DNA from: a virus
IMG/VR virus record: IMGVR_UViG_3300029194_000001
Location: 68,238 to 132,237 of that record
Reading direction: 5' to 3' (one strand)
DNA: 64,000 nucleotides
In this document: positions 23,525 to 27,442 of the stretch, in pieces
How positions within the stretch are numbered: position 1 is the stretch's first letter
Layout: every line of letters begins with the position of its first letter
Notes under the pieces: model-generated
The model's input: the letters and a program-made list of their open reading frames with translations, nothing else
Databases searched by the model: none
Told to the model about the DNA's origin: nothing
Position numbers and translations under genes: made by a program

Positions 23525-23608
23525 ATGGACATATTCAATATAGGTACTTTTATCTGTAGTGTTATCATGGTCGGATTTATGATCTACGATCATGTGAGAC
23601 ACGCCTAA
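23525..23608 (+). CDS. 27-aa hydrophobic micro-protein (MDIFNIGTFICSVIMVGFMIYDHVRHA) with a strong SD site
   Basis: AAGGAGG sits 9 nt upstream of the ATG, a single predicted TM helix, and a structured leader upstream. This is the only plus-strand gene in its block. Confidence 0.4.
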   Translation: MDIFNIGTFICSVIMVGFMIYDHVRHA

Positions 23609-23681
23609 TTCTTAAAGTATTCTCTTTGGTGAGGGAAATACCATATCATACTTCTGTTTAATCTGCTCATCTCTGAGCAAA

Positions 23682-23765
23682 TACGGATGATGGGACTCGA
23701 ACCCACAAGGCTGTTAGCCACCAGTTCCTAAGTCTGGTGCGTTTTCCTGATTTCGCCACATCCGT
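23682..23765 (-). tRNA. tRNA-Leu (anticodon UAG), class II with a long variable arm
   Basis: Acceptor ACGGATG/CATCCGT with 7 bp, U8, a 3-bp D-stem with a long D-loop, anticodon loop CUUAGGA, variable arm GGCUAACAGCC, and T-arm GUGGG-UUCGAGU-CCCAU. Confidence 0.75.
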
Positions 23766-24124
23766 TTATTTTTTAAGTACTGCTATACTGACAACTGCGC
23801 ACATCATCAGTATAGGCTTACATACTATTTTGTAGGTGACCATTGTGAAAACCTACCGCCTACTTTCTGATACTTAAAGGTCTCGTATATCTCTTACGCT
23901 GAACCAATCCCTCTCAGTTTCGGACTATCGTAAAATCCACACAGGATTTATATGAGATATTTTTGACAACGGTTTTTGCATGTTATTAAATTGTATTTTG
24001 TATTTTTGTGCGTTTTTGATATGCCTATAACCAAGAACTTAGCATATCTCTTCTGCTTGCTCATATCAAGTAGTCAAGTTTTTATCGCTAACGTATTTAT
24101 GAGGAATACGTTACGTAGTGGATA

Positions 24125-24198
24125 TGGACCATCTGTGATTCGAACACAGAAATCTTTCGCTTATGAGGCGACTGCCTTAACCGTTTGGCTAATGGTCC
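24125..24198 (-). tRNA. tRNA-Met/Ile2 (anticodon CAU)
   Basis: Acceptor GGACCAT/ATGGTCC, D-arm GCC-AAACGGUUAA-GGC, anticodon loop CUCAUAA, and T-arm CUGUG-UUCGAAU-CACAG. Confidence 0.7.
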
Positions 24199-24365
24199 TT
24201 GGTTGTGTTATAAGCGAAGCCATGCACGACCTCCAATAAATAAATATATTTTATAATACTTTAATCACAGGTGTAATTTATTTTACTTCAAGTCCTAGGA
24301 TTATCTTGAAGGTGACATATTACTATTATTTATATTCAATTACCGTTGCATACTTATAACACTAG

Positions 24366-24438
24366 CTGGGCTGGTAGGATTTGAACCTACGAATACGGAG
24401 GTCAAAGCTCCGGATGTTGACCGCTTCATCACAACCCA
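24366..24438 (-). tRNA. tRNA-Gln (anticodon UUG)
   Basis: Acceptor UGGGUUG/CAGCCCA (one G-U pair), U8, anticodon stem CGGAG/CUCCG with loop CUUUGAC, and T-arm GUAGG-UUCAAAU-CCUAC; 73 nt. Confidence 0.75.
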
Positions 24439-24967
24439 AAAACAATTTCATATCTTCAGTATCTACTCATCTTACTTTACGCCTAGACTTTCTTCGAGAG
24501 ATCTGCGTAGCCATCTTCACATCCACACCTCAGATGATATGTATCTACAATAGCTACTTCCAATATGAAATTATTTCTCTTTCAAATTCCTTCTATTAAG
24601 TCTATATGGTAACAACATAGTGTAATCTACATTAGAAGTTCATCAAAAGAATTTTATTATATCCATATACATAAAATATATAATGCTCCTTAATTACAAT
24701 TCCCACATTTAACGTATGTGTAGAGCTATAACGCCATTTGAATATCTGATAAGTGTCAGAACTTTGGAGGGATATATCGTTTCACCACATCCACAGGTTA
24801 ACTACGCCTTATTCAAAATGGATAGCATAAGAGTCCATCAGCCATAGGAGCAGACTCCACGGAGTTCCCTAACGATGACTTTGGGATTTATTATGTCGAT
24901 GATTGTTTTGCACCGCCTATATTCGCAACTATGCTATTCAATTTATAATAGGAAGAAACTCTTCCTA

Positions 24968-25028
24968 AGAGACACATCTGAGGGTTGAACTCAGAACCAA
25001 TTAAGGCTCCCCATCTGGAATGTGTCTG
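24968..25028 (-). other. tRNA-like remnant: acceptor-like 7-bp helix plus T-arm, but only about 61 nt
   Basis: GACACAU...AUGUGUC helix encloses CUGAG-UUCAACC-CUCAG (T-arm-like). It lacks a credible D-arm/anticodon-arm pair. Confidence 0.3.
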
Positions 25029-25374
25029 CTAAAATTGAAACAACTTTGTAAACCAAACCTTTTTAGAGTACTCTGATCTTCTTATAAGGCTCATCGCCAC
25101 AAGAACCATAACCACATACTGTAAGTTTGATTGAACTTCCGAAGATATATACACTTTTTCACGCACAGCTGCTACTCTGCTGTTACTAAATATGTAAAAG
25201 TTTAACCGTACTATTCGATTGCTCTAGCAGTAAACAAATCTTTCGTATAGCTTCGAGATTCCAGAACTACTGCGCTCTGTAGGTGGATCATACACGATAT
25301 TGTGTAGTCAAACGGTACGGCAACTCGGATATTGAGAAGCGTTTTTGTGGCACCACATATCTGAAATCTCTAAT

Positions 25375-25436
25375 AGGACATCTGGGAGTCGAACCCAGTA
25401 CAGACTATTTAAAGTCTCTTCGCCATCGAAGTCATG
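25375..25436 (-). other. tRNA-like remnant: good T-arm CUGGG-UUCGACU-CCCAG with no matching 5' acceptor strand
   Basis: T-arm and 3' acceptor-like AUGUCCU are present, but the upstream sequence cannot pair. It could be a pseudo-tRNA. Confidence 0.3.
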
Positions 25437-25694
25437 CCCCACCTCATCAACACTTTAGGAGGTATAAGAAATAAGAAATCTTTTTTGGGTAACTAACCCA
25501 AATCCTGAATGCGGATTCGAACCGGCAAATACATGGGTTTCATGTGTTATAACCATTTAACTATCCAGGACGTTCCAACTGCGGCTTTGTTAGAACTAAG
25601 AAACAAGGTTTTAATAACCGCATTGATTTATTTATAAGATGAACTTCACCACTTATCAGCCTTGTACAAACCACAGAGCCGATATAATCATGCT

Positions 25695-25820
25695 ACCAAA
25701 ACTTTCTCAAGGTTTTTATCAAACTTTGGAACTTATCAACTTTACTACGTGAACTTTATATCAAAAATAAGCTTTGAATTTTGAACTTTAAGGTTTGAAC
25801 TTTCTATCTTTAAACTTTAC
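25695..25820. repeat. array of seven AACTTT hexamers (plus GAACTT variants) in about 125 bp
   Basis: AACTTT at 25699, 25722, 25738, 25752, 25784, 25798 and 25813. The chance expectation for this hexamer in 125 bp of AT-rich DNA is well under one copy. Confidence 0.6.
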
Positions 25821-26096
25821 ATGCATTAGTAATAATGCACTTCTGCACAATTTTATCTAACTTAGTAAAATTATTTAGAGTATGAGTCTAAACCATTTAA
25901 TTTTTAAGGCCAGCTTGTTTAATTTTTTACTTTACTCTATGCTGACTGAAAGACTAAAGGATTATAGTTCAGTGATTTTCGATAAGCAATGAAGGAAATC
26001 TTTTATACAACTGTTCGTATAGCAATGGCTATTTAGCTATCATATTGGTCAAAAATCGTTTATACAATTTTCAGCAAATAATTCACTAACCATTCT

Positions 26097-26747
26097 TTAA
26101 TACTCAATTGTAACTGTTGTTAATGCGTTACTTGTGCTTAAAACAGAGTCTACTTCTGCTTCAAATGATGAAATTTCGTCAGATAAAACACGGATTTTAT
26201 TTTGCACATTTATCGGATCAATCAACTCCCATGTGTTAAGATCAATGTACTGCTGTTTGGCTTTTGTAACTTCATCGGTAGAAGTTTTACCCTCTTTCTG
26301 TCCAAAAAGACCAGTTACATAATTTTCTGACTTACTTTCAAGAATCTCATTCTCTTTGTTTGTTTTTGCCTGTGCCTGAGAAAGCTGTTGCTGCATTCTG
26401 TCAAGCATCTGTCTCTTGAACATCATACTGTTATTTTTCATGTTGATTGCTTCTGCTACAGTACGTTCTTCTTCATTTTCTCCAATTTTAATCTTAACTT
26501 TTGTTACTGCATTTGAAAGCATTACTGCTCTCTGCAGAGCTTCAAGTCTACTCATAAGATCTACATCTTTGTCGTAACATCCTGTAATAATCTTCTCATA
26601 TTCATCAACATCCATTCCAGAAATTTTTGACTGAGAATTTTTTTTGCAAGATACAAAAATTGAATTGTAAATCTCACTCTGGATTCTGTCTTTAAGGATT
26701 TTAATTTCTGCTAACGCTTTATGTACTGTCATAGTTTCTTTTGTCAT
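26097..26747 (-). CDS. hypothetical coiled-coil protein
   Basis: 216-aa ORF, heptad-rich and charged. Confidence 0.45.
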   Translation of the reverse strand: MTKETMTVHKALAEIKILKDRIQSEIYNSIFVSCKKNSQSKISGMDVDEYEKIITGCYDKDVDLMSRLEALQRAVMLSNAVTKVKIKIGENEEERTVAEAINMKNNSMMFKRQMLDRMQQQLSQAQAKTNKENEILESKSENYVTGLFGQKEGKTSTDEVTKAKQQYIDLNTWELIDPINVQNKIRVLSDEISSFEAEVDSVLSTSNALTTVTIEY

Positions 26748-26818
26748 AATTTTCTTCTCCTTTAAATTGAATTTTATTCTTTAAATTTTTAACTTTGAAA
26801 TACTCATTTCTGAGTTAA

Positions 26819-26890
26819 CGGCACCTGTTGGAATCGAACCAACATCTGATGATCCAAGGTCATCCGTGATAACCATTACACTAAGATGCT
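26819..26890 (-). tRNA. putative tRNA (anticodon UUG by position, with an atypical C at position 33; A1-C72 mismatch)
   Basis: T-arm GUUGG-UUCGAUU-CCAAC, a 6-bp acceptor, U8, and anticodon stem GAUGA/UCAUC with loop CCUUGGA. Confidence 0.4.
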
Positions 26891-27442
26891 TTATATTGAC
26901 GGTTGCTACACCGCCATATATGTCTTCGTCAGACAAATTTTTATTCACTCAGATTCGCTACTTTCTGAACCGTTCTCTTATGAACTGCTGCTACAGTTAC
27001 CTGGCAGTATCGCCCTTGTTCCATACCAATCACTTGTATGTACTCTCTATTTTCCAAGTTAGGCTTCGCCTCATTTATATGAGGGTCGTAAGTTAAGTTT
27101 ATCGTCATTCTTATCTGGACTCTCTATTATTTACTTCTCAATTGTTTCTTCATCTATTCTTAAAAAGTATCTCTAACCGAACTTGATACCGAAAAGTTTT
27201 TAATTACAGTTACTAATTAATTTGAGCCTTTATAATCTGGATTTAAGAATTAAATATGCAGACCTATCAATTAACCTTGCTGCATTACTATTGAATAAAT
27301 ACCTTACTGAACTTTAACTCTATCTATAAACTCAATCAATAACCTACCATACTTGTATTAAATGTATATTTACTTTTATATAAATAATCTATATGTAAAA
27401 GTAACTGTAATACGGAAGATTGATTACATTAACTACTTCCCA

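What the first reader, a model, noticed from the sequence alone, without database searches (positions are those of the whole stretch)
23600..27150. tRNA island with three intact tRNAs, one atypical tRNA and several decayed tRNA-like remnants
I could fold clean cloverleaves for tRNA-Leu(UAG), tRNA-Met(CAU) and tRNA-Gln(UUG) by hand. A fourth element has anticodon UUG but a C at position 33 and a 1-72 mismatch. At least two further elements keep a perfect T-arm but lack a matching acceptor strand or D-arm (24968..25028 and 25375..25436). That pattern is what decaying pseudo-tRNAs look like. About 1.6 kb here has no ORF and no clean tRNA. It may hold tRNAs I could not fold by eye, a tmRNA-like element or another structured RNA.
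Basis: seen in the sequence. Interest (0 to 1): 0.5.

Follow-up and report, generated by a model that had tools for sequence, protein, structure and literature searches.

The report
Shuffled phage tRNA island with anticodon-less cloverleafs
This is the tRNA gene region of a large gut phage: four working-looking tRNA genes, three complete tRNA-shaped RNAs that have lost a readable anticodon loop, and a known but uncharacterised RNA motif, in a spot that close relatives keep reshuffling; a known kind of locus with some unusual details.

Summary
ARAGORN and Rfam confirm tRNA-Leu(UAG), tRNA-Met(CAU) and tRNA-Gln(UUG). They also confirm a second tRNA-Gln(UUG) with C33 and an A1·C72 mismatch.

The two "remnants" are mis-described. 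Both have perfect 7-bp acceptor stems and T arms. What they lack is a 7-nt anticodon loop. A third such element (25502-25570) reaches the Rfam tRNA threshold.

The "empty" 1.6 kb also holds a RAGATH-27 RNA (25908-25993) and seven AAAGTT repeats. A 216-aa ORF lies just upstream of it. There is no tmRNA.

Thirteen near-identical phages (contigs up to 222 kb) show a recombination hot spot. tRNA slots keep the acceptor and T arms but swap the D and anticodon arms. Paralogues fuse, and one relative carries an HNH homing-endonuclease cassette inside tRNA-Gln. This resembles the T4 tRNA region with SegB and RNA C/D.

Two anticodon-less cloverleafs (S1, S2) diverge about 3% between relatives, against about 16% at four-fold sites and 19-33% in most flanking spacers. 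Free decay is therefore not supported, but S2 is confined to this shallow clade.

Verdict: a new member of a known kind, of moderate interest. In passing, RAGATH-27 shows a covarying pseudoknot and belongs to a conserved gene-RNA-repeat module.

The parts
26819..26890 (-). tRNA-Gln(UUG) variant ('Gln*') with anticodon loop CCUUGGA (C33, G37), an A1·C72 mismatch and no encoded CCA
   Evidence: ARAGORN and Rfam tRNA at 56.1 bits. It is present in all 13 close relatives, with only 3 variable columns. L012 and L004 differ at 0 of 72 positions.
26097..26747 (-). 216-aa ORF (phrog_1491, labelled 'tail fiber protein'; no Pfam, NCBIfam or PDB match). It anchors the conserved module
   Evidence: Homologues at 43-53% identity occur in many IMG/VR phages.
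25908..25993 (-). RAGATH-27 RNA (RF03100). The 5' part reads TTGCTT (25984-25989), 17 nt, TATAAT (25961-25966). The hairpin pairs 25941-25946 with 25909-25914. The candidate pseudoknot pairs AGUCU (25951-25955) with the loop AGAGU (25934-25938)
   Evidence: 85.4 bits against a gathering score of 76.1. The hairpin and pseudoknot covary across 23 distinct copies. It is single-copy in the window.
25700..25818 (-). Array of seven AAAGTT repeats (iteron-like), all in one orientation, spaced 14-32 nt apart
   Evidence: seven copies in 119 nt, against 90 copies on both strands of the whole 64-kb window. The array is conserved after RAGATH-27 in every clade examined.
25502..25570 (-). S1: a tRNA-like cloverleaf and paralogue of Gln*. 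Its anticodon arm is only 13-15 nt (a 3- to 5-nt loop) and its T stem has a bulged C
   Evidence: Rfam tRNA at 39 bits. ARAGORN calls it only at -ps90. The minimum-free-energy fold is a cloverleaf. Its D arm is 79% identical to that of Gln* (repeat D8). Alignment to tRNA-Gln sequences shows a 4-nt gap at the anticodon.
25374..25440 (-). S2: a compact cloverleaf. It has a 7-bp acceptor stem, a 5-bp D stem with the loop AUGG, a 5-bp anticodon stem with a 6-nt loop (UUAAAU here, UUGAGC in relatives), a 3-nt variable loop and a canonical T arm
   Evidence: ensemble frequency 0.69, z = -3.05. ARAGORN at -ps90 calls it tRNA-???(aa). There is no Rfam tRNA hit; the best match is mascRNA at 17 bits, E = 8.8.
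24970..25026 (-). S3: a 57-nt mini tRNA-like element. It has a 7- to 9-bp acceptor stem, the T arm CUGAG-UUCAACC-CUCAG, and only rudimentary D and anticodon hairpins with a 6-nt loop
   Evidence: Relatives hold four different alleles in this slot behind the same acceptor stem.
24366..24438 (-). Canonical tRNA-Gln(UUG), with U1-A72 and the loop CUUUGAC
   Evidence: Relatives carry three alleles whose D and anticodon stems differ by compensatory changes.
24125..24198 (-). tRNA with anticodon CAU. It is not an initiator (G1-C72). It may be an AUA-reading tRNA-Ile2
   Evidence: Three relatives hold a UAU-anticodon tRNA in this slot, and L013 holds an AAU point variant.
23682..23765 (-). tRNA-Leu(UAG), type II
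   Evidence: Relatives carry three alleles that share the acceptor and T arms.
22623..23303 (-). 226-aa ORF specific to this window, with no family match. It sits at the variable end of the island. With the 380-nt spacer upstream of it (23304-23681), it takes the place of the 58-nt tRNA-like element that lacks an anticodon arm, which most relatives carry
35301..36767 (-). Phage CCA-adding enzyme (tRNA nucleotidyltransferase). It lies outside the finding but is functionally linked, because none of the seven elements encodes a 3' CCA
   Evidence: PolyA_pol, tRNA_NucTran2_2, phrog_2244. The 3' trailers were read.

Best explanation
The region is the tRNA gene region of a large, AT-rich gut phage. 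The window is 33% G+C, and contigs of close relatives reach 222 kb. The nearest cultured relative infects a Clostridium-group host. Everything is read on the - strand.

It holds four tRNA genes that look functional: Gln* with C33, Gln(UUG), a CAU tRNA and Leu(UAG). It also holds three complete cloverleafs (S1, S2, S3) whose anticodon arm is shortened, so they cannot read a codon.

All of these sit next to a conserved module: the 216-aa gene, RAGATH-27 and the AAAGTT repeat array.

The island is a cassette-shuffling hot spot. Recombination between tRNA paralogues, and homing-endonuclease cassettes that land in tRNA genes, swap, fuse, delete and truncate the slots. The anticodon-less elements are products of this turnover. 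S1 is a copy of the Gln* lineage that has lost 4 nt of its anticodon loop.

Inferred, not shown:
- The elements are co-transcribed.
- They are cut out by RNase P and RNase Z and given CCA by the phage enzyme. They keep the acceptor and T-arm half that these enzymes recognise, and none encodes CCA.
- S1-S3 therefore accumulate as small non-decoding tRNA-like RNAs, as T4 RNA C and RNA D do.

My estimates:
- About 55% that S1 and S2 are held by selection of some kind.
- About 20-25% that their role is to compete for tRNA-binding or tRNA-cutting host factors.
- About 40% that they are young, neutral by-products.
For: Identity of the elements. Specificity of the signature.

Mosaicism:
- Thirteen phages share 92-100% identity in the 216-aa protein yet carry different tRNA sets.
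- Homology blocks break at or inside tRNA elements.
- The Gln, Leu and S3 slots keep the acceptor stem (Gln and Leu also the T arm) but have alternative D and anticodon arms.

Junctions seen directly:
- L003 fuses the 5' part of S1 to the 3' part of tRNA-Gln at a shared TGTAT.
- L001 has a chimera of the Gln 5' part and a CUA tRNA, joined in the D loop.
- L011 has a variant tRNA-Gln plus an HNH endonuclease ORF (Pfam HNH_3 at 24.8 bits, equal to its cut-off). Together they replace the 5' two-thirds of the resident tRNA-Gln and leave its T arm and 3' acceptor strand.
- A homologous HNH gene lies next to tRNAs in L109.

Precedent: T4 SegB recognises the T-loop motif and drives inheritance of the tRNA region (PMC2330249). 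It also amplifies tRNA genes (PMC13096335). [quoted passage not shown]

Origin of S1.

Constraint: S1 plus S2 differ at 4 of 136 positions between L012 and L004. Four-fold sites of the neighbouring ORF differ at 11 of 68 (p = 0.001), and the outer spacers at 67 of 348 and 120 of 358. The L011-L004 comparison gives the same picture.

No element encodes CCA, and a phage CCA-adding enzyme is present.
Against: - No expression or processing data exist.
- These genomes are mosaic and the local baseline is uneven: 5-14 differences per 100 nt around S1-S2. The spacer between S1 and S2 is itself fairly conserved (5 of 60; not different from S1+S2, p = 0.14). Low divergence could therefore reflect recent exchange of the whole block rather than selection.
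- The substitution pattern in the S1 and S2 stems is not clearly structure-preserving: by my reading of the alignment, 3 changes keep a pair and 3 break one.
- S2 has no relative outside this shallow clade.
- L003 lacks the 3' part of S1 together with S2, S3 and tRNA-Gln, so these elements are dispensable.
- This window carries no homing endonuclease in the island, and the cleavage site of the L011 enzyme is unknown.
Confidence: 0.6

Rival explanations
1. Plain decay. S1-S3 are dead pseudo-tRNAs with no role, drifting towards loss. Their good folding only reflects their youth.
For: - None has a 7-nt anticodon loop.
- S2 is restricted to a shallow clade.
- L003 has lost them.
- Other alleles look damaged. 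L005 has a T-stem-breaking change in S1, L009 has an acceptor mismatch in S2, and L004 has a T-loop C-to-U change in its CAU tRNA.
- Stem substitutions are not clearly compensatory.
Against: - S1 and S2 change 3-5 times more slowly than four-fold sites and than most adjacent spacers, in two lineages.
- S2 has four perfect stems and a dominant cloverleaf fold.
- The three changes specific to this window's S2 all fall in the 6-nt loop, and none falls in the other 61 positions.
- The defects cluster in the anticodon arm in several independent elements rather than being scattered.
Confidence: 0.3
2. Selected tRNA mimics. S1-S3 are kept because, as CCA-tailed L-shaped RNAs without an anticodon, they compete for host tRNA-binding or tRNA-cutting factors such as anticodon nucleases and other tRNA-targeting defences. 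The same conflict drives the fast-changing anticodon and D arms of the genuine tRNAs, and C33 in Gln*.
For: - Constraint on S1 and S2.
- A burst of changes confined to the S2 loop.
- Alternative lower-half alleles with compensatory stem changes in the Gln and Leu tRNAs.
- Gln* with C33 is the most conserved 100 nt of the locus.
- Nine of 97 distinct tRNAs in this phage family lack U33.
- Published work shows that phage tRNAs counter tRNA-targeting defences, and proposes that they escape through anticodon-loop changes (PMC10264068, PMC11464382, PMC11555353, PMC13056530).
Against: - A decoy for an anticodon nuclease would be expected to keep the target loop, and these elements have lost it.
- No host or defence system is identified.
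- The elements are not conserved beyond the clade.
- The arm swapping is equally well explained at the DNA level by homing-endonuclease escape and co-conversion.
Confidence: 0.2
3. Endonuclease scars. The short deletions in the anticodon arm are DNA-level escape mutations at the cleavage site of a homing endonuclease that targets tRNA genes. They are tolerated because the tRNA is dispensable.
For: - The L011 cassette junction and the L003 fusion both lie at the boundary between the 3' strand of the anticodon stem and the variable loop.
- Deletions of about 1, 3 and 4 nt are confined to anticodon arms in several elements.
- HNH genes recur in this island.
- Homing endonucleases are known to target tRNA-gene DNA (PMC2330249).
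Against: - The cleavage site is unknown.
- SegB targets the T-loop motif, not the anticodon arm.
- Scars alone do not explain the slow divergence of S1 and S2.
Confidence: 0.25

Closest known systems
Bacteriophage T4 tRNA gene region (eight tRNAs, RNA C and RNA D, segB)
   Same: It is a cluster of phage tRNA genes that also holds small non-tRNA RNAs of unknown function. A free-standing homing endonuclease recognises tRNA-gene sequence, drives preferential inheritance, and explains why related phages differ in tRNA content (PMC2330249, PMC13096335, PMC9697503).
   Different: The endonuclease seen here, in relative L011 and not in this window, is of the HNH family rather than GIY-YIG. The extra RNAs here are full cloverleafs with shortened anticodon arms. 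There is no sequence relationship to T4, and the host group differs.
Phage tRNAs that escape host anticodon nucleases through anticodon-loop changes (van den Berg et al. 2023; the PARIS and retron work)
   Same: These are phage-encoded tRNAs with unusual anticodon loops. Here Gln* has C33, and relatives have tRNAs with A33 or G33. Variation is concentrated in the anticodon arm.
   Different: The published cases keep a decodable 7-nt loop. S1-S3 do not. No nuclease or host is known here, so this is a lead and not a test.
Non-decoding tRNA-like RNAs released by tRNA-processing enzymes (mascRNA from MALAT1; gammaherpesvirus 68 tRNA-like RNAs). This comparison rests on my own knowledge
   Same: They have a cloverleaf or L shape with intact acceptor and T arms and an aberrant anticodon arm. 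They are expected to be cut by RNase P and RNase Z and given CCA without being charged. The only Rfam match for S2 is mascRNA.
   Different: That match is not significant (17 bits, E = 8.8). Those RNAs are eukaryotic or eukaryotic-viral, and there is no homology.
RAGATH-27 RNA (Rfam RF03100)
   Same: The element at 25908-25993 scores above the curated threshold over the full model.
   Different: Rfam's structure line shows only the hairpin. This family of copies adds a covarying 5-bp pseudoknot. It also shows a fixed position after one gene family and a downstream AAAGTT array.

Membership tests
tRNA (RF00005): the four main calls | Score at or above the Rfam gathering score, and an ARAGORN call at default settings | tested here: met
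   53-60 bits against a gathering score of 29. ARAGORN calls all four.
tRNA (RF00005): the four main calls | A 7-nt anticodon loop with U33 | tested here: met
   Met for Leu, CAU and Gln. Gln* (26819-26890) is the exception: its loop is 7 nt but carries C33. That C33 is conserved in all 13 relatives.
tRNA (RF00005): S1, 25502-25570 | Score at or above the gathering score | tested here: met
   39 bits here and 43.8 bits in relatives.
tRNA (RF00005): S1, 25502-25570 | A 5-bp anticodon stem with a 7-nt loop that carries a readable anticodon | tested here: not met
   Nine model positions are replaced by 5 nt. Alignment to tRNA-Gln sequences shows a 4-nt gap. ARAGORN misses it at default settings.
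tRNA (RF00005): S2 (25374-25440) and S3 (24970-25026) | A significant match to the tRNA covariance model | tested here: not met
   No tRNA hit at E up to 10. S2 is called tRNA-??? with a 2-nt 'anticodon' only at -ps90.
tRNA (RF00005): S2 (25374-25440) and S3 (24970-25026) | A 7-bp acceptor stem stacked on a 5-bp T stem with a T loop of the UUCRANY type | tested here: met
   The minimum-free-energy fold of S2 is a cloverleaf. That of S3 is not; its cloverleaf was drawn by hand.
RAGATH-27 (RF03100) | Full-length match at or above the gathering score, with a covarying hairpin | tested here: met
   85.4 bits against 76.1. All five hairpin pairs show changes on both sides.
tmRNA | A tRNA-like domain plus a tag reading frame, detected by ARAGORN or Rfam | tested here: not met
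   None at default settings. Only a spurious permuted call appears at -ps80, and it overlaps the 216-aa ORF.
Neutral pseudogene | Divergence equal to that of neighbouring neutral sites | tested here: inconclusive
   S1+S2 differ at 4 of 136 positions against 11 of 68 four-fold sites (p = 0.001). However, the genomes are mosaic and the spacer between S1 and S2 differs at only 5 of 60.
Homing-endonuclease-driven tRNA region (T4 SegB type) | A free-standing endonuclease gene inside the tRNA cluster, present in some relatives and absent in others | tested here: met
   An HNH ORF occurs in L011 only among the close relatives, and a homologue occurs in L109. None lies in this window's island.
Homing-endonuclease-driven tRNA region (T4 SegB type) | The endonuclease cleaves tRNA-gene DNA of relatives that lack it | not testable with these tools
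   The only evidence is the insertion junction inside the resident tRNA-Gln.
tRNA-Ile2 (CAU read as AUA after lysidine modification): the 24125-24198 tRNA | TilS and IleRS identity elements, and lysidine at position 34 | not testable with these tools
   Indirect evidence only. The 1-72 pair is G-C, so it is not an initiator. C4-G69 and C5-G68 are present. Relatives hold UAU and AAU anticodon alleles in the same slot. AUA makes up 20% of Ile codons.

The most novel reading that the evidence does not exclude
This gut-phage lineage maintains a small family of anticodon-less, CCA-tailed cloverleaf RNAs as selected tRNA mimics. The family comprises S1, S2 and S3, plus the 58-nt element without an anticodon arm and the 104-nt element seen in relatives. 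These RNAs would engage host tRNA-binding or tRNA-cutting defence factors, or the phages' own tRNA-gene-targeting endonucleases. The genuine tRNAs beside them, including a conserved C33 tRNA-Gln, would be diversifying in their anticodon and D arms under the same conflict.
Probability: 0.2. Interest if true: 0.7.

Novelty: new member of a known kind. Interest (0 to 1): 0.4.

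Why it matters
Phage tRNA clusters are now read as anti-defence and codon-supply loci. This one gives a clear natural series: 13 near-identical genomes in which tRNA slots are swapped, fused, truncated and invaded by a homing endonuclease.

If S1-S3 are expressed and constrained, they would be bacterial-virus counterparts of non-decoding tRNA-like RNAs. They would also offer a way into the half-century-old question of what such extra RNAs in phage tRNA regions do.

Separately, the data give RAGATH-27 a genomic context and a pseudoknot.

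If the elements are only young relics, the locus is an ordinary and well-explained tRNA island.

Tried and rejected
- DNA search of the phage GenBank collection. Only short tRNA-Leu matches came back and no relative. Relatives had to come from IMG/VR.
- Folding the long spacers 24439-24969 and 25027-25374. They are no more structured than shuffled sequence (z = -0.17 and 0.00), so no hidden structured RNA lies there.
- Promoter and terminator scan. Counts equal those in shuffled sequence.
- Exact and architecture-based searches for S2 in IMG/VR, and a covariance model of S2 run on 49 loci. Nothing like S2 was found outside the clade. The best foreign hits are ordinary tRNA-Met genes that share its T arm.
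- tmRNA: none.
- The idea that RAGATH-27 is a tRNA-array leader was rejected. It follows homologues of the 216-aa gene even where no tRNA follows.
- The idea that its 5' part is a repeated phage promoter was rejected. It is single-copy in 64 kb.
- Replication origin judged from GC skew: no inflection.
- Codon-compensation test. The host is unknown, and CUA (7%) and CAA (40%) are not striking. AUA is 20% of Ile codons. Inconclusive.
- The 216-aa and 226-aa ORFs have no Pfam, NCBIfam or PDB match.
- No text on RAGATH-27 is held in the paper library.

Full report
**What is there**

All genes in the window lie on the - strand. ARAGORN finds four tRNAs in the whole 64 kb, all in the flagged region:
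- Leu(UAG) at 23682-23765
- Met(CAU) at 24125-24198
- Gln(UUG) at 24365-24438
- a second Gln(UUG) at 26819-26890

Rfam confirms them at 53-60 bits, against a gathering score of 29. One is a fifth tRNA-model match at 25502-25570 (39 bits), here called S1. The other is a full-length RAGATH-27 RNA at 25908-25993 (85.4 bits against 76.1).

Its anticodon loop is CCUUGGA (C33), and the 1-72 pair is A·C.

The two "remnants" exist at the stated places but are mis-described:
- S2 (25374-25440) has a 7/7 acceptor stem. It folds on its own into a clean cloverleaf (ensemble frequency 0.69, z = -3.05).
- S3 (24970-25026) has a 7- to 9-bp acceptor stem and a canonical T arm.

What all three extra elements lack is a normal anticodon arm:
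- In S1, nine model positions are replaced by five.
- S2 has a 5-bp stem with a 6-nt loop, and a 5-bp D stem with the 4-nt loop AUGG.
- S3 has only 3-bp stubs.

A strict scan for a T arm plus a perfect acceptor stem finds five hits on the - strand of the window. All are in the island, against 0.75 expected in shuffled sequence. There is no tmRNA.

None of the seven elements encodes CCA. The phage carries a CCA-adding enzyme at 35301-36767.

**Context**

The window is 33% G+C. It encodes a DNA polymerase III alpha subunit, a poly(ADP-ribose) glycohydrolase (PARG) and a P-type ATPase.

The closest cultured relative by polymerase is Clostridium phage Amboise, at 49% identity. A host in the Firmicutes is therefore likely.

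IMG/VR holds 13 contigs, up to 222 kb long, whose 216-aa protein is 92-100% identical to the one at 26097-26747. Many more phages carry it at about 50% identity.

**The island is a shuffling hot spot**

The 13 close relatives carry different tRNA sets. Homology blocks break at or inside tRNA elements.

Individual slots keep the same acceptor stem but change what lies between:
- tRNA-Gln has three alleles. The acceptor and T arms are conserved, and the D and anticodon stems differ by compensatory changes.
- tRNA-Leu also has three alleles built the same way.
- The S3 slot has four alleles: the 57-nt mini form here, a 76-nt form, a 70-nt form with a 6-nt loop, and a CAU tRNA with A33.
- The CAU slot holds a 91- to 93-nt UAU-anticodon tRNA in three relatives and an AAU point variant in one.

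Three junctions can be read directly:
- L003 fuses the 5' part of S1 to the 3' part of tRNA-Gln at a shared TGTAT. This deletes S2, S3 and the spacers.
- L001 carries a chimera of the tRNA-Gln 5' part and a CUA-anticodon tRNA.
- L011 carries a cassette made of a different tRNA-Gln plus a 243-aa HNH endonuclease (Pfam HNH_3 at its cut-off). The cassette replaces the 5' two-thirds of the resident tRNA-Gln and leaves its T arm and 3' acceptor strand.

A homologous HNH gene sits beside tRNAs in a distant relative, L109.

This is the behaviour described for the T4 tRNA region. There the SegB homing endonuclease recognises the T-loop motif, drives inheritance of the region and amplifies tRNA genes (PMC2330249, PMC13096335). 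[quoted passage not shown]

They occur in relatives, and their origin is visible.

**Are S1-S3 decaying?**

S1 is a paralogue of Gln*. Its D arm is 79% identical to that of Gln*. Alignment to tRNA-Gln sequences shows a 4-nt gap exactly at the anticodon.

Between the two most divergent close relatives, L012 and L004, the differences are:

| Region | Differences |
|---|---|
| S1 | 2 of 69 |
| S2 | 2 of 67 |
| Gln* | 0 of 72 |
| Four-fold sites of the neighbouring ORF | 11 of 68 |
| Spacer from RAGATH-27 to S1 | 67 of 348 |
| Spacer from S2 to S3 | 120 of 358 |

Fisher tests give p = 0.001 or lower for S1+S2 against each of the last three rows. The L011-L004 comparison agrees.

In this window, S2 differs from L012 only by three changes. 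All three lie in the 6-nt loop. These results argue against free decay.

There are real caveats:
- The genomes are mosaic, with an uneven baseline.
- The 60-nt spacer between S1 and S2 is also fairly conserved (5 of 60).
- Stem substitutions are not clearly compensatory (my reading of the alignment).
- L003 lives without these elements.
- S2 has no counterpart outside this shallow clade, whether searched by covariance model or by architecture.

I therefore put about 55% on some form of constraint and about 40% on young neutral by-products.

**How it most likely works**

Shown: the gene content, the folds, the mosaicism, the junctions, the endonuclease cassette and the slow divergence.

Inferred:
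- The elements are co-transcribed on the - strand.
- They are released by RNase P and RNase Z and completed by the phage CCA-adding enzyme.
- The four tRNAs then decode CAA/CAG, CUA/CUG, and AUG or AUA.
- S1-S3 keep the acceptor and T-arm half that the processing enzymes recognise. They would therefore accumulate as small non-decoding tRNA-like RNAs.

The CAU tRNA may be an AUA reader. It is not an initiator, it has C4-G69 and C5-G68, the same slot holds UAU and AAU alleles in relatives, and AUA makes up 20% of Ile codons.

Defects and variation concentrate in the anticodon and D arms. Two non-exclusive drivers could explain this:
- escape from homing endonucleases that target tRNA genes, acting on the DNA;
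- escape from host tRNA-cutting defences, acting on the RNA (PMC10264068, PMC11464382, PMC11555353).

Neither can be tested here.

**The rest of the "empty" 1.6 kb**

RAGATH-27 is not tied to tRNAs. It lies 20-100 nt after the stop codon of the 216-aa gene family in 8 of 11 distant loci. These include loci where no tRNA was detected downstream of it.

Across 23 distinct copies the Rfam hairpin covaries. A 5-bp pseudoknot between the 5' flank (AGUCU) and the loop (AGACU) is also supported:
- 92% of cells are paired.
- Four of five pairs show changes on both sides.
- None of 500 shuffles matches the observed values.
- Slid controls give 17-43% paired.

Its conserved 5' part reads TTGCTT-17-TATAAT here. 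It is single-copy in the window.

Downstream, seven AAAGTT repeats lie in 119 nt. They belong to an array of 2-8 same-orientation copies found after RAGATH-27 in every clade examined, against a background of 0.3-0.6 copies per 450 nt.

The conserved unit is therefore gene, then RAGATH-27, then repeat array, with tRNA genes inserted around it. Its role is open; it could be a regulatory RNA, a set of protein-binding sites or an origin. There is no GC-skew signal.

The remaining long spacers are not structured.

**Verdict**

This is a real phage tRNA gene region of a known kind.

It is a new member of that kind and not a new system. The unusual points are:
- complete cloverleafs without a readable anticodon that evolve slowly;
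- a conserved C33 tRNA-Gln;
- a very clear natural record of tRNA cassette shuffling.

Interest is moderate (0.4).

Noticed in passing
window 25908-25993 (-); alignment A5 of 23 copies: RAGATH-27 has a covarying 5-bp pseudoknot between the 5' flank AGUCU and the hairpin loop AGACU. In this window's clade the loop reads AGAGU, which gives one G-G mismatch. The Rfam structure line shown has only the hairpin. The element always lies 20-100 nt after the stop codon of the 216-aa gene family.
   Followed up: yes
window 25700-25818 (-); the same position in L001-L137: An array of AAAGTT repeats (seven here, 2-8 in relatives) lies 90-280 nt after RAGATH-27. The copies run in the transcribed orientation, apart from a single reverse copy in three loci. 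It is conserved across clades that share only about 50% protein identity. The consensus is about yAAAGTTnAAA. It could be protein-binding sites or iterons.
   Followed up: partly
L011 8312-9190; L109 7281-7745: An HNH homing-endonuclease cassette, carrying its own variant tRNA-Gln, is inserted into the resident tRNA-Gln gene. A 30%-identical HNH gene lies beside tRNAs in a distant relative.
   Followed up: yes
L003 7477-7569, L006 8737-8829, L010 8634-8726, L015 5860-5950, L087 5599-5687: A 91- to 93-nt tRNA with anticodon UAU and a long, type II-like variable arm recurs in this phage family. In close relatives it occupies the slot that holds the CAU tRNA in this window. A long variable arm is unusual for an Ile tRNA.
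   Followed up: no
L012 8428-8502; L087, L090, L093 and L096 at about 5838: Relatives carry suppressor-type tRNAs: anticodon CUA in L012 and UUA in the L087 clade. In this window TAG is used for only 4 of 61 stops. Stop-codon recoding in part of the family was not examined.
   Followed up: no
all loci of the family: Nine of 97 distinct ARAGORN tRNAs lack U33, carrying C, A or G instead. In L001's CAU tRNA with A33 and L012's CUA tRNA with G33, positions 32 and 38 can pair, which shrinks the loop to 5 nt.
   Followed up: partly
L004 7810-7913 and 8923-8980 (also L006, L012, L013 and others): Relatives carry two further tRNA-like elements that this window lacks. One is a 104-nt element with acceptor and T arms around a long hairpin. 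The other is a 58-nt element with acceptor, D and T arms but no anticodon arm; it scores 37-41 bits against Rfam tRNA.
   Followed up: partly
window 22623-23303 (-) and 23304-23681: A 226-aa ORF with no family match is found only in this window. Its roughly 380-nt upstream spacer is shared with L011. Together they look like cargo inserted at the end of the island.
   Followed up: partly
L015 5142-5229; L136 4846-4933: An 88-nt tRNA-like element that ARAGORN does not call. It has a 6-bp D stem with a 4-nt loop, a long variable arm and the anticodon loop CUUGAAA (UGA). The D-arm geometry recalls selenocysteine tRNA, but the anticodon is that of Ser.
   Followed up: no
window 29231-30013, 35301-36767, 39984-42611 (-): The phage encodes a microbial-type poly(ADP-ribose) glycohydrolase (PARG), a CCA-adding enzyme and an 875-aa P-type cation ATPase.
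   Followed up: no
L137 5664-5836 (-); L110 8723-8793 and 9433-9500; L016 2113-2390; L017 4363-4593: Other Rfam families occur near the module in relatives: FuFi-1 RNA, two int-alpA RNAs that flank an ORF, and group I introns.
   Followed up: no
window 23600-27450 (-): the 3' trailers of each element: Most of the tRNA and tRNA-like elements are followed within a few nt by a short hairpin; I saw none after the canonical tRNA-Gln. An example is UUUGGGU-UAGUU-ACCCAAA after S1, which is conserved in relatives. The trailers mostly start with U.
   Followed up: no
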